From positions 734 to 64,733 of the forward strand of contig CAYOXK010000005.1 in assembly GCA_964407915.1 (NCBI GenBank): a stretch of 64,000 nt of DNA, read 5' to 3'. A model generated the notes under the pieces. It saw only the letters and a list, made by a program, of their open reading frames with translations, was not told the DNA's origin and searched no databases. The stretch is from an uncultured Gammaproteobacteria bacterium (GTDB lineage Bacteria; Pseudomonadota; Gammaproteobacteria; Arenicellales; Arenicellaceae). Both the position numbers and the translations under genes were made by a program. Below, piece by piece: positions 55,991 to 64,000 of this stretch (the stretch's first letter is position 1; the number at the start of each line of letters is the position of its first letter).

Positions 55991-56199
55991 TGGGCAGCGC
56001 TAAGGTCGAGAATCGTGTGCGTGAACTGCGCGCGACCGGACCGGGCATGACTCAGCAGGCACTGGCCGAGGCGGTCGGCGTCTCGCGTCAGACCATCATT
56101 GCTATCGAACAAGGCCGCTATTCACCATCATTGGAAGTGGCGCTTAAAATTGCTGCAGCGTTTGGCGAGCCCGTCGAGCACGTGTTTTGGTTAGATTGA
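55990..56199 (+). CDS. XRE family HTH transcriptional regulator
   Basis: NRVRELR, MTQQALAEAVGVSRQTIIAIEQGRYSPSLEVALKIA. Confidence 0.93.
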   Translation: MGSAKVENRVRELRATGPGMTQQALAEAVGVSRQTIIAIEQGRYSPSLEVALKIAAAFGEPVEHVFWLD

Positions 56200-56360: not shown

Positions 56361-56531
56361 TTGACAAACAAACAGTAAATTAAAATAATGATCGGCCGCG
56401 CATCGCTTGATGCCGGTTTTTGCACAAGGATTGTGCGTAGTTAGACCCAGTATTCGCGCCCGCGGAGTTGGGTTTATTAAGACACGGCTCAACAATGAGT
56501 GTTGAGCTGCTAAACGAAAAGGAGTTTCGCT
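56361..56531 (+). promoter_or_regulatory. Promoter and structured leader of the pilus operon
   Basis: TTGACA (56361)-17 bp-AATAAT. Hairpins gcacaAGGAttgtgc (56422-56436), gctcaaca/tgttgagc (56487-56507) and cgaaa-AGGAG-tttcg (56515-56529), the last holding the SD. Confidence 0.6.
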
Positions 56532-56861
56532 ATGTTGCAGACTAATTCTGAATTATTTCCTATCTATTTAACTGGTGCGCTCACGCAGCGCCAGCGTGAT
56601 CTATTGCGCTTAGAAGATTTCGAGCCCTTGAGTGCAGAAGAGCGCGATGAGCAAAAAGCCGAGGTCTATTACTGCTATCTAGAAACGCATGATCTACTGC
56701 ACGAGCTTTTGCCGGGTAAGAAAATAACGGATAACAAAGTGTTCGACTACATGCTGAATAATCAGATGGTGACGGGCGAGATCGCGCAATACAGCAAGGT
56801 GATGCTGTACGCCATTGTTAAAGAATATAGCCAGCAAGATCGGTTCTCTTTGCTTAAGTGA
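56532..56861 (+). CDS. Hypothetical cytoplasmic protein, first gene of the pilus operon
   Basis: Strong SD AAGGAG; 109 aa; no motif recognised. Confidence 0.7.
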   Translation: MLQTNSELFPIYLTGALTQRQRDLLRLEDFEPLSAEERDEQKAEVYYCYLETHDLLHELLPGKKITDNKVFDYMLNNQMVTGEIAQYSKVMLYAIVKEYSQQDRFSLLK

Positions 56862-56906
56862 CCATTATGTACTTGCCACACAACCGTACTTTTAAGCCTT
56901 GAAAAG

Positions 56907-57797
56907 TTGCGCGACACGGTGGTAAAAAGAAGTTCTTACAACTTCGGGGGGAGTATTGTGGGGTATATCGACGGTGTGCGCGCGGTTCTCGCGTGCAGCA
57001 TTTTTGGCACAACTACAAGCGGTGCCGGTCGCAGTCATCACGGTGTTATCCGTCGCACTGTGATCGTCGCGGTGTGCGCGTGGCCTCTTTTGAGTACGGC
57101 AGACTTCAGGTTTGAACCGGCGTCGGGCACACAAGCGTTCGACAAAATTCCCGATTCTGCACCCAGCACACAAGTCGAGACTCTCGCCGAAGCGAGGCGC
57201 GATCGAAAGCCCGCCGTTCCAAATGCTAGCCAATCTGGGTGGCGAATTGGCCACAGTGCAAAGGTGGTAAGCCAGAGGGCCGCTCGAGTTAATCATGTGA
57301 ATCAGGAATCTCACATGACCGATTTGATAAGCGCCTCGAAGGTGGACGCTCCCGCTTTGTTTTCGCAGGCAGCACTCAGCGCGCCCACAACAACTCGAGT
57401 GAAACCTGAAACGGTGGTTGCCACTTCGCAATCAGTGCGCGCGAGCGCTTCTAATGCACCCTTGGGAACGCCCTTGTCTTTCAATTCTTCGCCATCGCAT
57501 TCTTCCAGTTGCGCAAATTTTGAATTCACGCAAGGTTTGCTCAAGGCCAACCTGATTAGAGCGTTGGCGCAATGCGGTCTGACCATTGGTCGCTGGGGAA
57601 TTGGCGACGAAGAATACGAATATGACATGGAGATTGCTAAAGGCTATTCCCTCAGAGTGGCTGGTATTGCCGCTTTGCTCGACGCCATTGAAGCGACTTA
57701 TTTGATTCGGGGTACTCGTAACAGCTTAGATCAAACCATCGATTTTGAGCCGAGTCGCGGCGCAATTCTGGAAGGAATGGAGATCAAGGAATGGTAA
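56907..57797 (+). CDS. Putative TcpQ/PilL-like pilus accessory protein (start uncertain)
   Basis: Ser/Ala/Thr-rich N-terminal part, small C-terminal alpha/beta domain (GLLKANLIRAL...W...Y...IAALLDAI...Y); directly upstream of the secretin. Confidence 0.45.
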   Translation: MRDTVVKRSSYNFGGSIVGYIDGVRAVLACSIFGTTTSGAGRSHHGVIRRTVIVAVCAWPLLSTADFRFEPASGTQAFDKIPDSAPSTQVETLAEARRDRKPAVPNASQSGWRIGHSAKVVSQRAARVNHVNQESHMTDLISASKVDAPALFSQAALSAPTTTRVKPETVVATSQSVRASASNAPLGTPLSFNSSPSHSSSCANFEFTQGLLKANLIRALAQCGLTIGRWGIGDEEYEYDMEIAKGYSLRVAGIAALLDAIEATYLIRGTRNSLDQTIDFEPSRGAILEGMEIKEW

Positions 57798-59368
57798 ACC
57801 TATCTGCACACCGATGGTTCCTGCTCGCCTTAGTTCTATTGGGTGCTACAGCCTGTGAGTCGGCTGCTCGCAAAGACGCAATCGGCATCTCTGCCCGGGT
57901 GGACGACGATATTCGTAAAACACAAAACGCGCGTGAAACAGAGGATCGCTATTTACATGCCCAACAGGAGCGAGCATCGCGGCCTACGCGAGTGGTGCGA
58001 ATTCCGCGTTCGGCACAATGGTTGCGCGATGAAGTTACTGCGCGTTACGACGACGCGCCCGTCGCGTTAGCGATTGCAACGGTATTAGACGGTCGGCCGT
58101 TTCGAATGGATTTGCTCGCGCACAACGCGGCCGAACATCCTAGCTCTGGCGACACGCATATTACCTTGCCGACGGGTGATATCGTGCCCCTTTCCAAAAC
58201 GAGTAGCCGCAACAAAGCAGATGCCGTCTTGGTGAGCAATCCACCTGAAGCGACAACGATTAAACAACATCTCGATGCGATTGCCAGCCAGGCGGGATGG
58301 TCCTATTCAGTGTCGAATGGGGTGGTGGTTTTTTCAGATCTATTGGTACAAACATTCCCCATAAAGTCGAATACCCATGGCGCTAAGCAAATGTTTCGGT
58401 TTAGCAATGCATCGGCCAGCGTTGATACAGGCCAACAGCCAATCGATCTCTTTCAAGAATTACGCACTTCGCTGGCGAGTATGGTGATGTCACCAAATAC
58501 CTTCACCATCAACCCATCCGCCAACTCAGTGACCGTGAAAGCGAGTCATGCCGTGCTACGGCAAGTAAAGCAATATGTAGATCAACTCAATTACGCAGCG
58601 GGGCGGCGCGTGGCGATTCGTATGGACATCTACGACATAAACTTAAGTGCTCTGGGCCAACGCTCGTTCGACTTCGATATTAAGAACTTACTTGCCGATG
58701 CAGAGAGACTAAAAGGATTTATTACCGACTTTGCGATTGTTGGCAGCGGGCAAGTAAACACACAAAGTGCGCCTACCTCGTTGAACCTGCGTGTGGAAAA
58801 CGCGGATAGCACTTTGAATGGAGCTACGGCTTTACTCAAAGTATTGCGCGGTAAGGGCGCCGTTACCAAACGTACCGCTAAAGAATTTATTGTCAGTAAT
58901 AACGAACAGGTAAACGAAATTCGCACGCGCATTACGCCATACGTTTCGGGCGTGACCGTAGATCAGATCACCACGGGCATCACGCAATCAAATACACCGA
59001 CTATCGAAACCAAAGAAGCCAATACCGGTACGGCAATCCAACTGTATCCCACCATTTCGGGAGACCGCGTGTATATCCAGATGACGATTGAAGATTCGAG
59101 CTTGGTGCGTTTTGATGATTTTGAATTTGGTGGAGATGAGGGTGTTGGGCTTGTGTCGGGCAAATTACCGGTTACTGAAGTCGCGCAGAGTCAATATGAG
59201 TTCGCGATGATCGATGGTGAAACGATCGCCGTGGCCGGCTCAATTACATCGTCGCGAGCCCACGAGGTAGTGAACGGCAGCCTCATTCCTATTCTTGGAG
59301 ACAGTGTCGATAAGAACGAGACCCGCACACAATCATTAATATTTGTTACGTCCAATATCTTGGACTAA
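57791..59368 (+). CDS. Lipoprotein secretin, PilN/BfpB/TcpC-like
   Basis: Lipobox GATA-C; LDAIASQAGWSY; N3-like INPSANSVTV...LRQVKQYVDQLN; RVAIRMDIY; DGETIAVAG; C-terminal LIFVT. Confidence 0.8.
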   Translation: MVNLSAHRWFLLALVLLGATACESAARKDAIGISARVDDDIRKTQNARETEDRYLHAQQERASRPTRVVRIPRSAQWLRDEVTARYDDAPVALAIATVLDGRPFRMDLLAHNAAEHPSSGDTHITLPTGDIVPLSKTSSRNKADAVLVSNPPEATTIKQHLDAIASQAGWSYSVSNGVVVFSDLLVQTFPIKSNTHGAKQMFRFSNASASVDTGQQPIDLFQELRTSLASMVMSPNTFTINPSANSVTVKASHAVLRQVKQYVDQLNYAAGRRVAIRMDIYDINLSALGQRSFDFDIKNLLADAERLKGFITDFAIVGSGQVNTQSAPTSLNLRVENADSTLNGATALLKVLRGKGAVTKRTAKEFIVSNNEQVNEIRTRITPYVSGVTVDQITTGITQSNTPTIETKEANTGTAIQLYPTISGDRVYIQMTIEDSSLVRFDDFEFGGDEGVGLVSGKLPVTEVAQSQYEFAMIDGETIAVAGSITSSRAHEVVNGSLIPILGDSVDKNETRTQSLIFVTSNILD

Positions 59369-59389
59369 TGGATTGAGGTAACCGCTACT

Positions 59390-60649
59390 ATGTTTGGCAA
59401 ACGCGACCATTACAGCTCTGAGCGAATATTGGATCCTGCAACGGGGGTACGCGTACCTGTGGTGCTTAATCCAAAGATGGAGATTGCCGACCCGCAACTG
59501 CCCGCACGCGATCGGGTGAATCAGTATGTTCGCTTTATTAAAGAGCAAGGTACGCGCTACTGCCTGTTTACGCCTACGGGTTTAAAAGTATCGCGGGCGT
59601 CTGGTGTTTCGTTATCGTCGCAAGTAGAGCAGCTGGCGGTTACTTATCAACTTGAAGACGAAAGCATTATTGCGCAGTTTGGCGAAACCTACTATTTGGC
59701 CAATTTGTCGTCAGGCTTTGTAGTGCGCGAGACCTTAGTGCCGATTGCTCAGTTCGATGCAAACGATTTAGGGCAAAACGAAGTGATCGCTTTGCGCGGC
59801 GTTAAAGGTTCCCAAGAGATGGGAATTCGTGTGATCGACGCAGCGTTACTGTTGTCGGGTCGGGGAGTCACTAAGTCTCATCTTTTTCAGACGGAGGTAA
59901 AAGCGTTCGCGGCAGCTGGATACCGACATCCAGTGCAAATACGCAAAGCCATTTTTCTTGTGAGCGCATGTGCAATTCTGTTCGCTACCGCTTATAGCTA
60001 CCGTGCTTATGAACTAGAACAGCAGCGCATTGAACAACAAAAGCGCGCTGCCGTTATTCCACCTAAGGTAGGTAAAGATAGTTCCGTAGAACAATTGCGT
60101 GCGTATGCACAGTGGTTGCATGACCATCTGCACTATTACTTGCGTAACGGTTTGCAGAATATTGAGATTAGCGCGTCTACCCTCACGCTCCGTGGGCGTG
60201 TTGAGCCCGCATCATTTATCAAATTTTATGAACATCATAAATCGCTTGGCGTGTTACCAAACTATGCCGTGGTGCTCTCGCCAGCGGGCGATGCGGGTGG
60301 TGATATCGCCAATAGCTCTACTTGGACATTGCAGCTAAATTTAGAACGTCCCATTCCTGGAGTTGCGCAGTTTGGTTTGGAGCTGTTTGAGAACTATGTA
60401 GTGACCATGTCAGCGGCTCTACCGCGTATTAATTTTGCGGGTTCAAGTGAAACGCCATCCGTGAATGCCTACGGCATTAAAGAGGGGCAATTCAATATCG
60501 TGGGTGAGTACACCTCACCAAAAAATCTATATAACCTAGCCAATGTGATGATCGGCATTCCTTCCTATACACAGGGTATGCAGCTCAATTTCGCAAATCA
60601 AAGTTCGGCGCAAATGACCATTCAAATGCGATTGGTTGGGAGGGGGTAA
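59390..60649 (+). CDS. Putative PilO-like pilus alignment protein
   Basis: Cytoplasmic N-terminal domain, one transmembrane segment (AIFLVSACAILFATAYSY), short coiled coil, periplasmic domain; position after the secretin. Confidence 0.45.
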   Translation: MFGKRDHYSSERILDPATGVRVPVVLNPKMEIADPQLPARDRVNQYVRFIKEQGTRYCLFTPTGLKVSRASGVSLSSQVEQLAVTYQLEDESIIAQFGETYYLANLSSGFVVRETLVPIAQFDANDLGQNEVIALRGVKGSQEMGIRVIDAALLLSGRGVTKSHLFQTEVKAFAAAGYRHPVQIRKAIFLVSACAILFATAYSYRAYELEQQRIEQQKRAAVIPPKVGKDSSVEQLRAYAQWLHDHLHYYLRNGLQNIEISASTLTLRGRVEPASFIKFYEHHKSLGVLPNYAVVLSPAGDAGGDIANSSTWTLQLNLERPIPGVAQFGLELFENYVVTMSAALPRINFAGSSETPSVNAYGIKEGQFNIVGEYTSPKNLYNLANVMIGIPSYTQGMQLNFANQSSAQMTIQMRLVGRG

Positions 60650-60651
60650 CC

Positions 60652-61380
60652 ATGCGAAGTCTATCGTTTAAAGGTTCGGTTTTCGTGATGTGTAGTTGCT
60701 TTATTGGGCAAGCGTGGGCGGTACAGTCGGACCCCGTTGCAGAGCGTAAAGCAAGAAACGCACAGCTTGAACGGGTATCGCCCGTCATGGCCCGTGAGCA
60801 AGCCTATACCCCTTCTAGCCAGGAAGCGGTCAGTGAGAATTTACGGCAGGTAAAAGCCATGCTCACTACTATAAACGCAACCTTGAGCGACTTGGCATTA
60901 CTCGGATCGCGAGCTGACCAAGCTAAGTTGTTGCTAAACGCAGATAAAAGCACGCAGCAAATTCTGGCGGACTTGTTGGCTGACGAAGCACAGCGAGTTG
61001 CAGCGTCCCCGATTCCTGTAAAAGCTGCGCACGCAGCGCCACCAGATGTGGGTAGTGAAGCATCATTCAATAATGCACCCATCCAAGCCATCGCGCCTGA
61101 ACCCCCAAAAGCGTTCGAACGGGTAACGCCCGTGGTAGTGCGCTCCTACGACCAAGAAATTAGCCATGGGGATGTGCGTCCGGCCAAAGTTATTTTGCGC
61201 GTAGGTAAGCGCGACCCCGAAGTTTTTTATGTGGGCGATACCGTGCAAGTAAACGATACACAATTTACGTTGGTCTCGGCGGTAGCGATGCGCACGAGTA
61301 ATAAACAACATGGACGACCTGTTTACGAGATTACCTTGCGCAGCCATTCAGGTGAGATCCAAATATTGGAGTGGGAGTAG
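60652..61380 (+). CDS. Putative PilP-like periplasmic protein
   Basis: Signal peptide (AWA-V), coiled coil, Pro/Ala linker, small C-terminal beta domain; position before the ATPase. Confidence 0.45.
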   Translation: MRSLSFKGSVFVMCSCFIGQAWAVQSDPVAERKARNAQLERVSPVMAREQAYTPSSQEAVSENLRQVKAMLTTINATLSDLALLGSRADQAKLLLNADKSTQQILADLLADEAQRVAASPIPVKAAHAAPPDVGSEASFNNAPIQAIAPEPPKAFERVTPVVVRSYDQEISHGDVRPAKVILRVGKRDPEVFYVGDTVQVNDTQFTLVSAVAMRTSNKQHGRPVYEITLRSHSGEIQILEWE

Positions 61381-61381
61381 C

Positions 61382-63025
61382 ATGGGTTGGTTTGACCGCA
61401 GCTCGTCTAAGCCGCGTCGCGTAGTTGCCAACGCGAAAGTCACGCGTCGCCCACACGCAGGCGTTAACGGCATTGAACGCGATGTGGTGGTGCATAAAGA
61501 AGGTGAAGTAGGTGATTATCGCTTATTGTTGACGAAGACCGCGAGTGCCGAGCCTGCCGTGACCGCCATTCTGCTGAAGAACCCAAGTTTGCGTTGTTTA
61601 GTAACTAGGCAAAACGAGATATTTGCGGTGAAACCTAAGTTGCAAAGCTCGCCTGCGCAAGCACTGAACCACCTTGTGGCATTGTGCAAGAAATTGTCCG
61701 ACGGCCAGCCAATACATCTGTTTTATGTGTCGGAAACCATCTATCAGTCGTATTTAGAGGGGTTAAGCAAAGTACATTCGTCGGGCATTGCGATGCTCGA
61801 TAACGAAAAAATTAATCAGTTGTTTTTAGAGGCTATTCGGCAAAAAGCGAGCGACATACATATTCGCTATCGCGCCTCGGAAGCGATCATTTTGTTTCGC
61901 GTAAATCAGCTGTTGCGCCCGCACGAGATTGTTGAGGCCAGCACGGCCAAGCGCATCATCACGGCGATGTTCAATACCACCAAGGGTGGGAAAGACTTCT
62001 CGATGCAGCAATCAATTGACACCTCGTTTAAATACAACGCTGAAACGGGCGATGAGTTTATGGTGCGCGCTAATTCAAGCCCAGAAAAGCGCGGCGTAAC
62101 GGTAGTGTCGAGATTGCGTAACACTAAAGAGCTATTGCCTCTTGAGGTGGCTGGCTACACGGCCAAGCAACTCGCTCATTTGCGTACCATAACCGATAAA
62201 CATCAAGGCCTACTGCTGATCACGGGCCCGACCAATTCAGGCAAGTCCACCACCCTCACTACTATCATGGCCCATATTCCGCGCGAGTATGCAGTGTGCG
62301 AAGTGGCAGACCCGATCGAGGTAGTGCTGCCTAATGTTTCGCACTTTGAGGTTGCGAACGACAACGATCAAGAGATGGATCGAGTGATGAAAGACATGGT
62401 CCGTCAGGACCCCGATTACTTAATTGTGGGCGAAATTCGCTCTCAGCAAACAGCGCATGCGGCTACATCCCTTGCTTATGCCGGCACCTCGGTAATGACG
62501 ACCATGCACACGAATAGTATTGCGGCGGCGTTTCCGCGTGCAATCAAGCTAGGAATGGAGCGAGATGATCTCTCCGTGGAAGGTTTCTTGAACGGTGTGG
62601 TCTCTCAAAACTTAGTGCCGGTGCTGTGCGAGCAGTGCAAACGTCCCTTTATGAGCAAGCCGAATATGTCGGAAGAAGACAATAAACGTAAAACGGCTTA
62701 CTACGGCGAAATTTTTGCAGGATATCAAATCTATTATCGTAATTTTGCAGGATGCAGTGCCTGCCGTCGCACTGGCGTGCAAGGCATAACGCTAATCGCC
62801 GAAGTGTTGGAAATGTCGCAAGAAGTGCGCAAGCTCGTCGCGCGCAAAGAGCATTATTTAATTGGTGAGTACATGGAGGCAAACGGTATCTACACCAAAC
62901 ACAGTCACGCGGCGCATAAAGTAATGCAGGGCATGTTTGATCCCACCTTGGTCGAAGACAAGATAGATCCATTTAAGCCGAGCGATGTAACGGCGGCCTT
63001 GCGTGCTGGGGGCATTAATGTTTAG
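61382..63025 (+). CDS. GspE/PilB-family extension ATPase (PilQ/TcpT/BfpD-like)
   Basis: ASDIHI, Walker A GPTNSGKST, ADPIE, RQDPD, Walker B LIVGEIR, His box TTMHTN, CEQC...CSAC tetracysteine; start placed at ATG 61382. Confidence 0.9.
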   Translation: MGWFDRSSSKPRRVVANAKVTRRPHAGVNGIERDVVVHKEGEVGDYRLLLTKTASAEPAVTAILLKNPSLRCLVTRQNEIFAVKPKLQSSPAQALNHLVALCKKLSDGQPIHLFYVSETIYQSYLEGLSKVHSSGIAMLDNEKINQLFLEAIRQKASDIHIRYRASEAIILFRVNQLLRPHEIVEASTAKRIITAMFNTTKGGKDFSMQQSIDTSFKYNAETGDEFMVRANSSPEKRGVTVVSRLRNTKELLPLEVAGYTAKQLAHLRTITDKHQGLLLITGPTNSGKSTTLTTIMAHIPREYAVCEVADPIEVVLPNVSHFEVANDNDQEMDRVMKDMVRQDPDYLIVGEIRSQQTAHAATSLAYAGTSVMTTMHTNSIAAAFPRAIKLGMERDDLSVEGFLNGVVSQNLVPVLCEQCKRPFMSKPNMSEEDNKRKTAYYGEIFAGYQIYYRNFAGCSACRRTGVQGITLIAEVLEMSQEVRKLVARKEHYLIGEYMEANGIYTKHSHAAHKVMQGMFDPTLVEDKIDPFKPSDVTAALRAGGINV

Positions 63026-64000
63026 AGCATTTTTAAATTGGCAGAACCATCACATCCTGTTCGATTTTAACGAACGGCAAACCTTTCTTATGGTGTTGGG
63101 TACGCAGTTAGAAAGCGGCACACCCTTAAGCCGTATTCTCGAATCAATGCACAGCCACCCGTATACGCCCGTAGTGGGCGACGTGGCGGGGCTCGCATTA
63201 GATGCGTTTCGCGATGGTAAACCCATTGCTGAGTATTGGGACAGTCAAGGGCACTTCTCTACCATGGAGGCCAAGTTGCTAGCGGTAAGCGAATCTATTA
63301 ATGGGCGAGAGGGCTTAGTTCAGGCGGTGGCGTATTTGCGCGAAAGCACCAGTCCTGATGTGTCGTTTTGGCGCACCGTTGTATTCGCTAACATCGCCTA
63401 CATTGTGGCGTCAGCCTATCTGTTTGGTTTTATGGTCTATTTGTCGGCAGCACACCAAGATACGTATCACGATGTGTTGGTGCAGGTTGGTAAGAGTAGT
63501 ACCGACATGGCCTTGTTCCAAATGGGTAATTTCTTTCTTGGCTACGGTCTGTACCTCGCGCTGGGTCTGGGTGTTTTTACGTTGGGATATCTATATCTAC
63601 GGCAGTCCATTGTGGATGTGCAAGATCGCACGCTGGCGCAAAAATTCTTGCTGTTCAATTTCTATGATCTGAAGTTTGAGTACGACATTTGCGGCATGGT
63701 TGCAGCGTTTTTACGTCAACGCATCCCTATTCAACAAACCGTGCAAATCATGGCCGATATTTACCTGAGCTCACACTTTAAAAACACTCGCTTGCTGTGG
63801 GTGTTGGCCGAGCTTGGCGACGGGGAGTCGACCATTCCAAGTTTTCGCGGACGCGTGTTCTCTGAGCAGAATTATCATTTGGTTGAATTAAATGCCGCAG
63901 ACGACACTCCTGAGGAATTGGCGCAGGGCTTCAGCGTAACCCAGCAGATTGCTGGAGTGTTATTAACGCGTAATTTTAAACGCCTTGGACGGCTGACATT
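63018..64000 (+). CDS. GspF/PilC-family inner-membrane platform protein (PilR-like), runs off the right edge
   Basis: Translated by hand: MFRAFLNWQ...RQTFLMVLGTQLESGTPLSRILESM...EAKLLAVSE..., two transmembrane segments and a second helical repeat. Open to 64000; ATG overlaps the ATPase end. Confidence 0.8.
   Translation, partial: MFRAFLNWQNHHILFDFNERQTFLMVLGTQLESGTPLSRILESMHSHPYTPVVGDVAGLALDAFRDGKPIAEYWDSQGHFSTMEAKLLAVSESINGREGLVQAVAYLRESTSPDVSFWRTVVFANIAYIVASAYLFGFMVYLSAAHQDTYHDVLVQVGKSSTDMALFQMGNFFLGYGLYLALGLGVFTLGYLYLRQSIVDVQDRTLAQKFLLFNFYDLKFEYDICGMVAAFLRQRIPIQQTVQIMADIYLSSHFKNTRLLWVLAELGDGESTIPSFRGRVFSEQNYHLVELNAADDTPEELAQGFSVTQQIAGVLLTRNFKRLGRLT

What the first reader, a model, noticed from the sequence alone, without database searches (positions are those of the whole stretch)
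56532..64000. Divergent type IVb-like pilus operon with no visible mobile-element context
Seen: tightly packed genes for a TcpQ/PilL-like protein, lipoprotein secretin, single-TM protein, periplasmic coiled-coil protein, tetracysteine ATPase and platform protein, continuing past the window. Established: this order matches R64/PAPI-1 pilL-N-O-P-Q-R and TCP/BFP type IVb systems, mostly known from plasmids, ICEs and enteric pathogens. The ATPase has no obvious MshEN domain and the order differs from msh and tad operons. No integrase, relaxase, tRNA or att repeat is visible at the left border. Inference: a resident, highly diverged T4bP in an environmental bacterium, with unknown role (adhesion, secretion of a colonisation factor, or mating).
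Basis: partly seen in the sequence, partly recalled or inferred. Interest (0 to 1): 0.7.

Follow-up and report, generated by a model that had tools for sequence, protein, structure and literature searches.

The report
Divergent chromosomal type IVb-like pilus operon
This is a real, complete 11-gene operon for a surface pilus related to the type IVb pili of plasmids and gut pathogens, sitting in the chromosome of a marine Arenicella-like bacterium; it is a strongly diverged variant of a known machine, not a new kind of system.

Summary
Window 56532-64000 holds seven tightly packed + strand genes. The operon continues past the window and onto contig C80, giving 11 genes: g1 (small acidic protein), g2 (exported protein), g3 (lipoprotein secretin), g4 (bitopic protein), g5 (periplasmic protein), g6 (tetracysteine ATPase), g7 (platform), g8 (major pilin), g9 (pilin-like protein without a cleavage site), g10 (larger minor pilin) and g11 (SLT lytic transglycosylase).

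The secretin is PilN/BfpB-type: it is sister to plasmid/ICE PilN with 99% support, it excludes MshL, GspD and PilQ, and BfpB is its only PDB hit. The ATPase and platform each form a distinct deep clade. That clade lies outside MSH/T2SS/T4aP but is not nested in the R64/ICE references.

g1, g2, g4, g5 and g9 match no known family, and the 'TcpQ/PilL-like' label could not be verified. The pilins have short or medium leaders with Phe+1, and the operon has no peptidase. The genome's single PilD, in the T4aP locus, must process them.

No integrase, relaxase, tRNA or tra genes flank the operon. The site is conserved in close Arenicella relatives, but only 2 of 22 genus genomes carry the system. An unlinked Dot/Icm-like T4BSS co-occurs only in that sub-lineage.

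The most likely role is adhesion or aggregation in biofilms. I rate it a new variant of a known kind, of moderate interest.

The parts
56361..56389 (+). Sigma-70-like promoter, TTGACA-17-AATAAT, about 140 nt upstream of g1
   Evidence: It matches 11 of 12 consensus positions. A terminator-like hairpin of the upstream HTH gene lies at 56160-56179.
56532..56861 (+). g1: a 109-aa acidic (pI about 4.9) protein with no signal peptide. It is the first gene of the operon and its role is unknown (a regulator or chaperone is a guess).
   Evidence: It is 75-80% identical in close relatives (L016, L019), with a copy at the same position in L025, and is absent from the distant variants L021 and L023. It has no Pfam or NCBIfam hit.
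56907..57797 (+). g2: an exported (possibly lipo-) protein. It has a variable, disordered N-terminal region and a conserved C-terminal alpha/beta domain of about 95 aa with a Cys pair. Its stop overlaps the secretin start. It is a candidate secretin partner or pilotin. The true start codon is uncertain.
   Evidence: The alignment of 9 homologues shows the conserved C-domain. In the AF2 model only residues 283-367 are confident. There is no Pfam TcpQ or PilL hit, no hhalign hit to PilL/TcpQ and no PDB hit by fold or sequence.
57791..59368 (+). g3: a 525-aa outer-membrane lipoprotein secretin of the PilN/BfpB (type IVb) type.
   Evidence: The lipobox Cys22 is invariant. NCBIfam PilN scores 3.8e-16 and MshL 1.7e-11, both far below their cut-offs. 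Pfam Secretin misses it in a whole-genome search. hhalign to PilN gives 98.7%. In the tree it is sister to PilN with 99* support, excluding MshL, GspD and PilQ. BfpB is the only PDB hit, at 4.9e-15.
59390..60649 (+). g4: a 419-aa bitopic inner-membrane protein with a cytoplasmic domain (1-176), a TM plus long helix (181-252) and a periplasmic part with two alpha/beta repeats. It is inferred to be an assembly or alignment protein analogous to GspL, PilM-N-O or BfpC.
   Evidence: The TM is at 181-202. The AF2 model has pLDDT 81. Foldseek gives only local matches, to PilO 2rjz (prob 0.90) and Amuc_1100 (0.96), and nothing at E<1e-3. The family has 145 representatives in 1.84e9 proteins, and none of the 112 scanned has a Pfam hit. 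There is no hhalign hit to PilO/PilO2.
60652..61380 (+). g5: a periplasmic protein of about 230-242 aa with a signal peptide, a helical segment, a variable linker and a conserved C-terminal beta-rich domain of about 80 aa. It is inferred to be a PilP/GspC-like connector to the secretin.
   Evidence: The alignment of 9 homologues shows this layout. It has no Pfam or NCBIfam hit and no hhalign hit to PilP or PilM.
61382..63025 (+). g6: a 547-aa assembly ATPase of the T2SSE/GspE superfamily, with a tetracysteine motif and no MshEN/T2SSE_N domain.
   Evidence: PF00437 scores 1.3e-61 and no NCBIfam model reaches its cut-off. Homologues start at the internal Met. Walker A and B, the Asp and His boxes and both CxxC motifs are conserved. 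It forms its own clade (99*), apart from MSH/GspE/PilB and from the PilQ references.
63003..64000 (+). g7: a polytopic inner-membrane platform protein (356-361 aa). It is cut by the window end and finishes at window-equivalent 64088.
   Evidence: It has a weak T2SSF hit and is complete in L001. hhalign to PilR gives 95-98% with scores 65-88, against 45-57 for MshG. It forms its own clade (98*) in the platform tree.

Best explanation
The locus is the 5' two-thirds of an 11-gene chromosomal operon that builds a type IV pilus of a strongly diverged lineage related to type IVb pili.

Shown:
- A sigma-70-type promoter precedes g1.
- g3 is a PilN/BfpB-type lipoprotein secretin.
- g6 is a GspE-superfamily ATPase with intact catalytic and zinc-binding motifs.
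- g7 is the platform protein.
- g8 (beyond the window) and g10 (on contig C80) are prepilins with G|F...E5 cleavage sites.
- g11 is an SLT lytic transglycosylase.

Inferred mechanism:
- The genome's only prepilin peptidase, PilD in the T4aP pilBCD locus on contig C17, cleaves and N-methylates g8 and g10. The switch of these pilins to a short leader with Phe+1 is an adaptation to that enzyme.
- The g6 hexamer drives g7 to extract pilins from the inner membrane and polymerise them. g10, possibly together with the uncleaved pilin-like g9, primes or caps the fibre.
- g4 and g5 form the trans-periplasmic alignment complex, in the way GspL/M/C or PilMNOP do.
- g2 helps the secretin to assemble or be targeted.
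- g11 opens the peptidoglycan locally.

No retraction ATPase is encoded in the operon. The most likely role is cell-surface or cell-cell adhesion in biofilms or microbial mats.
For: Gene content and order are conserved in relatives with 33-95% ATPase identity.

Secretin: the tree places it with PilN at 99* and BfpB is its only PDB hit.

hhalign to R64/ICE proteins: g3-PilN 98.7%, g6-PilQ 100%, g7-PilR 98.5%, g8-PilS 89% over 125 columns, g10-PilV over up to 181 columns, g11-PilT(SLT) 96.5%.

The ATPase motifs are conserved. The prepilin motifs are visible in the sequence. The genome has a single Peptidase_A24 gene, next to pilB/pilC. The g4 topology and model fit a bitopic assembly protein.

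The flanks are chromosomal housekeeping genes, and GC content equals the genome average.

Near-identical DNA is found in stromatolite metagenomes, with weaker partial matches in biofloc, plastic-surface and runoff metagenomes.
Against: There are no expression or filament data, and no RNA run holds the pilin.

Five of the 11 proteins (g1, g2, g4, g5, g9) have no detectable homology to any characterised pilus component. Their roles are inferred from position, topology and weak fold hints only.

The ATPase and platform do not group with the type IVb references.

The similarity of g10 to PilV is no stronger in probability than MSH-pilin controls; it differs only in aligned length.

The adhesive function is an inference from what such pili usually do and from the habitat.
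Confidence: 0.7

Rival explanations
1. It is a contact or mating pilus that works with the genome's Dot/Icm-like (MPF_I-type) type IVB secretion system. This would parallel the R64 thin pilus, which stabilises mating pairs for the IncI T4SS. Here it could support DNA transfer or effector delivery into neighbouring cells.
For: Contig C97 encodes DotB/TraJ-like, DotC/TraI, DotD, DotI/IcmL, DotH/IcmK and TrbI/DotG-like proteins. Among 22 genomes of the genus, DotC occurs in exactly the two that carry the pilus operon. g10 resembles the constant part of PilV.
Against: The two loci are about 1.2 Mb apart on the related Arenicella MAG's 3.57-Mb contig. The two genomes are a close sub-lineage (transporter 89% identical to each other, about 69% to the rest), so the co-occurrence is a single event. 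Twelve f9-family genomes and the NORP350 MAG carry pilus variants but no DotC. There is no shufflon and no variable adhesin C-terminus. No relaxase appears among the 25 of 54 families shown for the T4BSS neighbourhood, which looks metabolic.
Confidence: 0.1
2. It is a secretion device and not an adhesive pilus. In this reading a short pseudopilus pushes one or more periplasmic proteins (for example g9 or an unlinked substrate) through the secretin, as T2SS does and as TCP and CFA/III do for TcpF and CofJ.
For: The secretin, ATPase and platform architecture is shared with secretion systems. g9 is an operon-encoded exported protein of unknown role with a conserved Cys pair. No retraction ATPase is present.
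Against: The major pilin is a full-size pilin (152 aa mature) with a C-terminal disulfide region and a Ser/Thr-rich tail. No set of GspH-K-like minor pseudopilins is present. The genome already has a bona fide T2SS and a second GspD/GspE pair. The secretin groups with pilus secretins.
Confidence: 0.08
3. It is an MSH-type or type IVa-type pilus that merely looks type IVb-like because of its gene order.
For: The pilin has a short leader, Phe+1 and Glu+5, as in T4a and MSH pilins. NCBIfam MshL is the second-best secretin hit. The ATPase core scores higher against PilF, GspE and PilB structures than against BfpD.
Against: The secretin tree excludes MshL, GspD and PilQ with 97-99* support, and the secretin's only PDB hit is BfpB. 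The ATPase and platform lie outside the MSH+GspE+PilB and MshG+PilC+GspF clades. The ATPase has no MshEN/T2SSE_N domain. No MshI/J/K/M/N or PilMNOP homologues are detectable. Distant members of the family have long-leader pilins with Trp+1 or Leu+1.
Confidence: 0.04
4. It is a recently acquired or decaying remnant of a mobile-element pilus and is no longer functional.
For: Distribution is patchy, at 2 of 22 genus genomes. Flanks differ in MAG L016, where a Fic gene and an antitoxin-like (BrnA/CopG-type) gene are nearby. A TnpB-like gene lies 2.8 kb downstream on C80. g2 is about 100 aa shorter here than in some relatives. One relative, L018, has a split ATPase gene, and L026 has an interrupted one.
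Against: All 11 genes are intact in this genome wherever the contigs allow them to be read, and the catalytic motifs are preserved. Proteins are conserved at 43-86% across species, which is consistent with purifying selection. GC content equals the genome average. No integrase or att repeats were found, and the chromosomal site is conserved in several relatives.
Confidence: 0.05

Closest known systems
R64 (IncI1) thin pilus, pilI-pilV, and the related PAPI-1/ICE pilL2-pilM2 cluster (conjugative type IVb pili)
   Same: The gene order is the same: an exported protein, then lipoprotein secretin (PilN), a bitopic protein of about 420-430 aa (PilO position), a small periplasmic protein (PilP position), ATPase (PilQ), platform (PilR), major pilin (PilS), SLT (PilT of R64) and a larger minor pilin (PilV). 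Profile matches exist for six of these. The secretin is the sister group.
   Different: It has no operon peptidase (PilU), no shufflon or variable PilV C-terminus, no PilM, and no adjacent tra or ICE genes. The PilL, PilO and PilP positions are filled by proteins with no detectable similarity. The pilin has a short leader with Phe+1, where PilS has a long leader with Trp+1. The ATPase and platform form a separate deep clade. The SLT gene is last and the minor pilin comes before it.
Bundle-forming pilus (BFP) of enteropathogenic E. coli (BfpB secretin, BfpD ATPase)
   Same: BfpB is the only solved structure that matches the secretin profile. The match is collinear, 156-524 against 156-529, at E 4.9e-15. 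BfpD aligns over the longest span of the ATPase. Both are single-operon machines with a lipoprotein secretin and an SLT-type gene.
   Different: Sequence similarity is very low. The ATPase core scores lower against BfpD (89 bits) than against PilF or GspE (134-149 bits). No retraction ATPase (BfpF) and no dedicated peptidase (BfpP) are present. No BFP locus was fetched for a tree, so the relationship is not placed phylogenetically.
'Generic' or basal unclassified type IV filament systems of Denise et al. 2019 (PMC6668835)
   Same: That study places T4bP, and in some trees unclassified generic systems, at the base of the bacteria-only TFF clade. Its T4bP model allows the prepilin peptidase to be a loner. 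Both points fit this system.
   Different: MacSyFinder could not be run, so it is unknown whether this locus would be called T4bP or generic.
Unannotated T4b-like cluster on Shewanella xiamenensis plasmid NZ_CP106875.1
   Same: It has the same layout, with gene sizes 166-516-436-247-ATPase-363-156-156 aa and an SLT gene nearby. The secretin aligns full-length (98.6%) and the ATPase at 100%.
   Different: It is plasmid-borne. Its g4 and g5 positions are again unrelated in sequence. Its ATPase is a long, isolated branch in the tree.

Membership tests
Type IVb pilus (T4bP) | The secretin is a PilN/BfpB/TcpC-type outer-membrane lipoprotein. | tested here: met
   The lipobox Cys is invariant. The secretin is sister to PilN at 99*, excluding MshL, GspD and PilQ. 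BfpB is the sole PDB hit. However, NCBIfam TIGR02520 scores 58.7 bits against a cut-off of 287.65, so it is not a member by that curated model.
Type IVb pilus (T4bP) | All assembly genes lie in one contiguous operon with the pilin inside it, and there is no PilMNOP set. | tested here: met
   The 11 genes form one block in this genome (C5 plus C80) and in 8 or more relatives. There are no PilM/N/O/P hits.
Type IVb pilus (T4bP) | The assembly ATPase and platform group with T4b PilQ/BfpD and PilR/BfpE. | tested here: inconclusive
   The family forms its own clade (99* for the ATPase, 98* for the platform). AU tests do not reject joining it to the T4b references (already in the best tree at support 63; p=0.067 for the platform), nor joining it to the MSH/GspE/PilB group (p=0.449). 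TCP, BFP, COF and Tad references were not included.
Type IVb pilus (T4bP) | The major pilin has a long leader (about 13-30 aa), a non-Phe residue at +1, and a mature size of about 180-200 aa. | tested here: not met
   The leader is 9-11 aa with Phe+1, and the mature pilin is about 152 aa, in this genome and its close relatives. Distant family members (f9 genomes) do show a leader of about 40 aa with Trp+1, or Leu+1.
Type IVb pilus (T4bP) | A dedicated prepilin peptidase is encoded in the operon (PilU, BfpP or TcpJ). | tested here: not met
   There is no A24 peptidase in the operon or in relatives. The genome's single Peptidase_A24 gene is at C17:4351, in the pilBCD locus. The MacSyFinder T4bP model does allow a loner pilD.
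Type IVb pilus (T4bP) | The accessory proteins are homologous to PilL/TcpQ, PilO/PilO2/BfpC and PilP/BfpU. | tested here: not met
   There are no Pfam or NCBIfam hits and hhalign probabilities are 0.3% or less. There is no significant fold or PDB-sequence hit. Positional and topological analogy remains.
Type IVb pilus (T4bP) | A large PilV/TcpB/CofB-type minor pilin is present. | tested here: inconclusive
   g10 is a 213-aa mature prepilin. It aligns to the PilV constant region over 97-181 columns, but the probability is similar to helix-only matches to MSH pilins.
MSH pilus | An MshL secretin, an MshE ATPase with an MshEN domain, and MshI/J/K/M/N accessory genes are present. | tested here: not met
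   MshL scores 43.7 bits against a cut-off of 250.2. The secretin and ATPase lie outside the MSH clades built from 9 MshL and 6 MshE references. PF05157 is absent. No AAA (MshM) or TPR (MshN) genes are present.
Type II secretion system / type IVa pilus | GspD/PilQ-type secretin, GspE/PilB ATPase over the curated cut-offs, and GspC/L/M or PilMNOP are present. | tested here: not met
   GspE scores 190.8 against 630 and PilB 177 against 676. The Pfam Secretin model does not detect g3. The genome's true GspE, PilB, GspD and PilQ are elsewhere and form other clades.
Conjugative plasmid or ICE pilus module | It is linked to relaxase, coupling protein, T4SS or integrase genes, or it sits at a tRNA/att site. 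| tested here: not met
   There is no tRNA in the window. The flanks are a transporter, hydrolases and glyQS on the left and metabolic genes on the right. No plasmid ATPase is more than about 31% identical. The T4BSS is on another contig and about 1.2 Mb away in the related MAG's 3.57-Mb contig. The window's other ~55 ORFs were not scanned individually for mobility genes.
Tad/Flp pilus | A TadA/CpaF ATPase, a short Flp pilin and an RcpA secretin are present. | tested here: not met
   The Flp_Fap hit is only to the pilin's hydrophobic N-terminus (E 1.6e-4, below the cut-off). The pilin is 152 aa. The ATPase is a long GspE-type protein with CxxC motifs.

The most novel reading that the evidence does not exclude
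The operon represents an unnamed class-level branch of the type IV filament superfamily. It has at least ~100 protein clusters at 50% identity, judged by the g4 family, and would be a sister to or basal relative of T4bP.

This branch kept a PilN/BfpB-type secretin. Its ATPase and platform lineages are its own. Its trans-envelope alignment complex (g2, g4, g5 and the uncleaved pilin-like g9) shows no detectable sequence relationship to PilL/O/P/M, GspC/L/M or PilMNOP.

In the Arenicella sub-lineage it has been re-wired to depend on the host's T4aP peptidase, and it may act together with the co-inherited Dot/Icm-like T4BSS as a cell-contact apparatus.
Probability: 0.25. Interest if true: 0.6.

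Novelty: new variant of a known kind. Interest (0 to 1): 0.4.

Why it matters
Type IVb pili are known almost only from enteric pathogens and conjugative elements. This system shows a free-standing chromosomal relative in marine mat and biofilm Gammaproteobacteria.

Five of its eleven proteins are invisible to current family libraries, and the secretin is missed by Pfam's Secretin model. Standard annotation pipelines would therefore miss such systems or label them only 'hypothetical'.

The family also gives a natural series for studying how pilins co-evolve with their peptidase. It runs from long-leader pilins with Trp+1 or Leu+1 to short-leader Phe+1 pilins that depend on a foreign PilD.

Finally, the g4, g5 and g2 proteins are candidates for a structurally convergent or extremely diverged alignment complex. 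None of this overturns current understanding. It extends the known diversity of a basal, poorly sampled branch of the type IV filament superfamily.

Tried and rejected
1. Bridging g2 to TcpQ/PilL. I tried Pfam at E<=5 on two homologues, a word-indexed profile search (5 hits, all the same small family), hhalign against PilL and TcpQ-domain proteins, AF2 plus Foldseek, and a PDB profile search. All were negative. The only hint was a faint hhalign hit (E about 1e-3) to a 166-aa protein in the Shewanella plasmid cluster.

2. Bridging g4 to PilO, BfpC or GspL. An exhaustive HMM search gave 145 representatives, and none of the 112 scanned has a Pfam domain. A PDB profile search was negative. Foldseek gave only local PilO-like matches.

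3. Empty-site test in six genus-mates that lack the operon. Only the transporter and one neighbouring gene are syntenic, so no clean empty site can be defined.

4. Resolving the ATPase's sister group. AU tests cannot reject any of the three topologies.

5. Expression evidence. No RNA run could be listed for the pilin gene.

6. T4BSS linkage. The co-occurrence is real but confined to one sub-lineage, and the loci are physically unlinked.

7. Pilin classification by PDB profile. Matches are dominated by the shared N-terminal helix. The only globular-domain match, to the toxin-coregulated pilin, is not significant at E 0.046.

8. Reference loci for TCP, BFP and COF were deliberately not fetched, because they lie on pathogen virulence elements. 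I used the names of PDB hits instead, so these classical T4b systems are missing from the trees.

Full report
OBSERVATION. The window is C5:734-64733 of a 2.92-Mb, 99.5%-complete genome in 177 contigs. From 56532 to the window end there are seven co-directional, tightly packed ORFs.

- g1 (56532-56861, 109 aa).
- g2 (56907-57797).
- g3 (57791-59368, 525 aa).
- g4 (59390-60649, 419 aa).
- g5 (60652-61380).
- g6 (ORF from 61310; homologues start at the Met at 61382; 547 aa).
- g7 (63003 onward).

Pfam and NCBIfam recognise only g6 (T2SSE, 1.3e-61), g7 (weak T2SSF) and g3. For g3 the hits are PilN-family 3.8e-16 and MshL 1.7e-11, both far below their cut-offs.

The secretin has a lipobox (LLGATA|C) whose Cys is invariant in homologues. 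g4 has a single TM at 181-202. g5 has a signal peptide. The ATPase has Walker A GPTNSGKS and two CxxC motifs that are conserved across the family.

The ATPase has no T2SSE_N/MshEN domain. The window has no tRNA. A near-consensus promoter, TTGACA-17-AATAAT, lies at 56361-56389.

THE WHOLE OPERON. The contig ends 963 nt after the window. That stretch completes g7 (361 aa) and adds g8, a prepilin (MKHSNRMNG|FTAIEY; 9-residue leader, Phe+1, Glu+5, 152-aa mature protein with a C-terminal Cys pair). It also holds the start of g9.

Relatives found through the ATPase and secretin show an 11-gene operon. tblastn locates the missing end of this genome's copy at the start of contig C80. That end comprises the g9 tail, g10 and g11.

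- g10 is a prepilin with a 15-residue leader (RG|FSALEL) and a 213-aa mature protein.
- g11 is an SLT lytic transglycosylase.
- g9 has a pilin-like hydrophobic N-terminus but no Gly-1 or conserved Glu+5, and two invariant cysteines.

The operon has no prepilin peptidase, no retraction ATPase and no shufflon. The genome's single Peptidase_A24 gene sits in the T4aP pilB-pilC-pilD locus on C17.

CONTEXT. In three metagenome contigs and on a 3.57-Mb chromosome-scale contig of an uncultured Arenicella MAG, the operon lies next to the same nucleoside transporter and hydrolase genes as here. In the metagenome contigs glyQS lies beyond these genes. Metabolic genes follow downstream, and a terminator-like hairpin follows the SLT gene. 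Another MAG has different flanks.

On C80 the operon is followed by a secreted protein and a TnpB-like gene. No integrase or tra genes are present. GC content equals the genome average. No plasmid in PLSDB has an ATPase more than about 31% identical.

Within the order, 14 of 201 genomes match the secretin profile. Two are in this genus, out of the 22 genus genomes examined, and 12 are in a second family (f9) that carries a much more diverged variant. The two genus genomes are a close sub-lineage: the flanking transporter is 89% identical between them and about 69% to the rest. An empty-site comparison failed because synteny is not conserved.

CLASSIFICATION. I used several reference sets:
- four annotated plasmid/ICE type IVb operons, from Erwinia (R64-type), Pseudomonas veronii (ICE-type), Plesiomonas and Janthinobacterium;
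- nine MshL and six MshE proteins from loci whose secretin exceeds NCBIfam's MshL cut-off;
- the genome's own GspE/GspD, PilB/PilQ, TfpB-like and PilT/U proteins.

Secretin tree. The family (99*) is sister to the PilN references, joined with 99* support on a long branch. MshL (99*), GspD and PilQ are excluded. The secretin profile's only PDB match is the BFP secretin BfpB, collinear at E 4.9e-15.

ATPase tree. There are three deep clades: PilQ-type references, MSH+GspE+PilB+TfpB, and this family (99*). Their order is unresolved, and AU tests reject none of the three resolutions.

Platform tree. The picture is the same, with the family at 98* and p-AU 0.067 for joining it to PilR.

Profile-profile comparison links g3, g6, g7, g8, g10 and g11 to PilN, PilQ, PilR, PilS, PilV and PilT(SLT). 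Controls show that the g8-PilS and g10-PilV alignments extend into the globular domains (97-181 columns). MSH pilins align only over the N-terminal helix, but the probabilities are comparable, so these two links are suggestive only.

In the f9 variants the major pilin has a leader of about 40 residues with Trp+1, or Leu+1. These are classic type IVb traits.

This all agrees with Denise et al. 2019, who find T4bP, and sometimes unclassified 'generic' systems, basal in the bacterial TFF clade, and who allow a loner peptidase in their T4bP model.

UNASSIGNED COMPONENTS. g1, g2, g4, g5 and g9 have no Pfam or NCBIfam hit. They also show no hhalign similarity to PilL/TcpQ, PilM, PilO/PilO2 or PilP.

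g4. An exhaustive HMM search finds only 145 representatives among 1.84 billion proteins, and none of the 112 scanned has a Pfam domain. Its AF2 model (pLDDT 81) shows a cytoplasmic alpha/beta domain, a TM plus long helix, and two periplasmic alpha/beta repeats. The repeats match PilO and Amuc_1100 locally (prob 0.90-0.96) but nothing globally. The topology is that of GspL, BfpC or a PilM-N fusion. This is an inference.

g2. Only its conserved C-terminal domain of about 85-95 residues folds confidently, and it matches nothing.

g5. It combines a signal peptide, a helical segment, a variable linker and a conserved beta-rich C-domain, like PilP or GspC in outline only.

MECHANISM. The identity of the core machine is well supported. 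The roles of g2, g4, g5 and g9, the dependence on the T4aP PilD, and the adhesive function are inferences.

The short-leader, Phe+1 pilins in exactly the clade that lacks an operon peptidase, and whose genome (searched here) holds a single PilD, suggest adaptation to that enzyme.

Near-identical DNA occurs in stromatolite metagenomes, with partial matches in biofloc, plastic-surface and runoff metagenomes. Published work associates Arenicella with seaweed surfaces and marine disease states (PMC12849669). This fits an attachment or aggregation role. No RNA data were available.

SIDE FINDING. Contig C97 carries a Dot/Icm- or IncI-like T4BSS core. It co-occurs with the pilus in the same two genus genomes, but it lies about 1.2 Mb away on the related MAG's 3.57-Mb contig. 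It is absent from 13 other genomes that carry pilus variants.

VERDICT. It is a type IVb-related, chromosomal pilus operon without mobile-element context. However, it is a separate, highly diverged branch with non-type-IVb pilin leaders, no peptidase, and accessory proteins that cannot be equated with PilL, PilO or PilP. Unchecked earlier notes of this scan report chromosomal type IVb operons in several other uncultured lineages, so the general phenomenon is not rare. I rate it a new variant of a known kind, with interest 0.4.

Noticed in passing
Own genome contig C97:2003-8315 (outside the window); related locus G092:C1 around 318 kb (L042, L045): This is a Dot/Icm- or IncI-type (MPF_I) type IVB secretion core: a DotB/TraJ-like ATPase, DotC/T4SS_TraI, DotD, DotI/IcmL, DotH/IcmK and a TrbI/DotG-like protein. 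In the related Arenicella MAG it sits among metabolic genes, and no relaxase appears among the 25 of 54 families shown. It is present in only 2 of 22 genus genomes, the same two that carry the pilus operon.
   Followed up: partly
window:55424-56199: Two overlapping small genes, a 188-aa protein with no family hit and a 70-aa Xre/HTH_3 protein, are inserted between the conserved transporter gene and the pilus promoter. Relatives have nothing there (L019) or different small ORFs (L025). This may be a toxin-antitoxin-like or regulator pair occupying a variable spot.
   Followed up: no
L069 (Shewanella xiamenensis plasmid NZ_CP106875.1, 64340-79722): A plasmid cluster annotated almost entirely as 'hypothetical' has the same layout as this operon: secretin, a ~436-aa protein, a ~247-aa protein, ATPase, platform and two pilins, plus an SLT gene and a 1110-aa protein. 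It is another unrecognised type IVb-like variant.
   Followed up: partly
Own genome contigs C2:68087-71099 and C13:41883-42755: This is a second GspD-type secretin (over NCBIfam's GspD cut-off) with a GspE-like ATPase split across two contig ends, in addition to the canonical T2SS on C54. The genome also has a TfpB-like ATPase (C18) and a third PilT-like ATPase (C33).
   Followed up: no
L018:13539-15132 and L026:13148-14741: In one metagenome relative (L018) the pilus ATPase gene is called as two pieces (438 + 70 aa). In the NORP350 MAG (L026) it is also interrupted. These are either assembly errors or decay of the system in some lineages.
   Followed up: no
Own genome contig C80:4287-5516: A TnpB-like (IS200/IS605 family) 409-aa ORF lies 2.8 kb downstream of the operon's last gene. 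I identified it by eye from the sequence, not with a family scan.
   Followed up: no
L037/L038 (genomes G145 and G192, family f9 of the same order): These distant variants of the system have a major pilin with a leader of about 40 residues and Trp+1, or with Leu+1. They also have larger g10-like pilins (317-399 aa as called, although the N-methylation motif begins near residue 111 in one, so the start may be mis-called). G145 has two secretin copies.
   Followed up: partly
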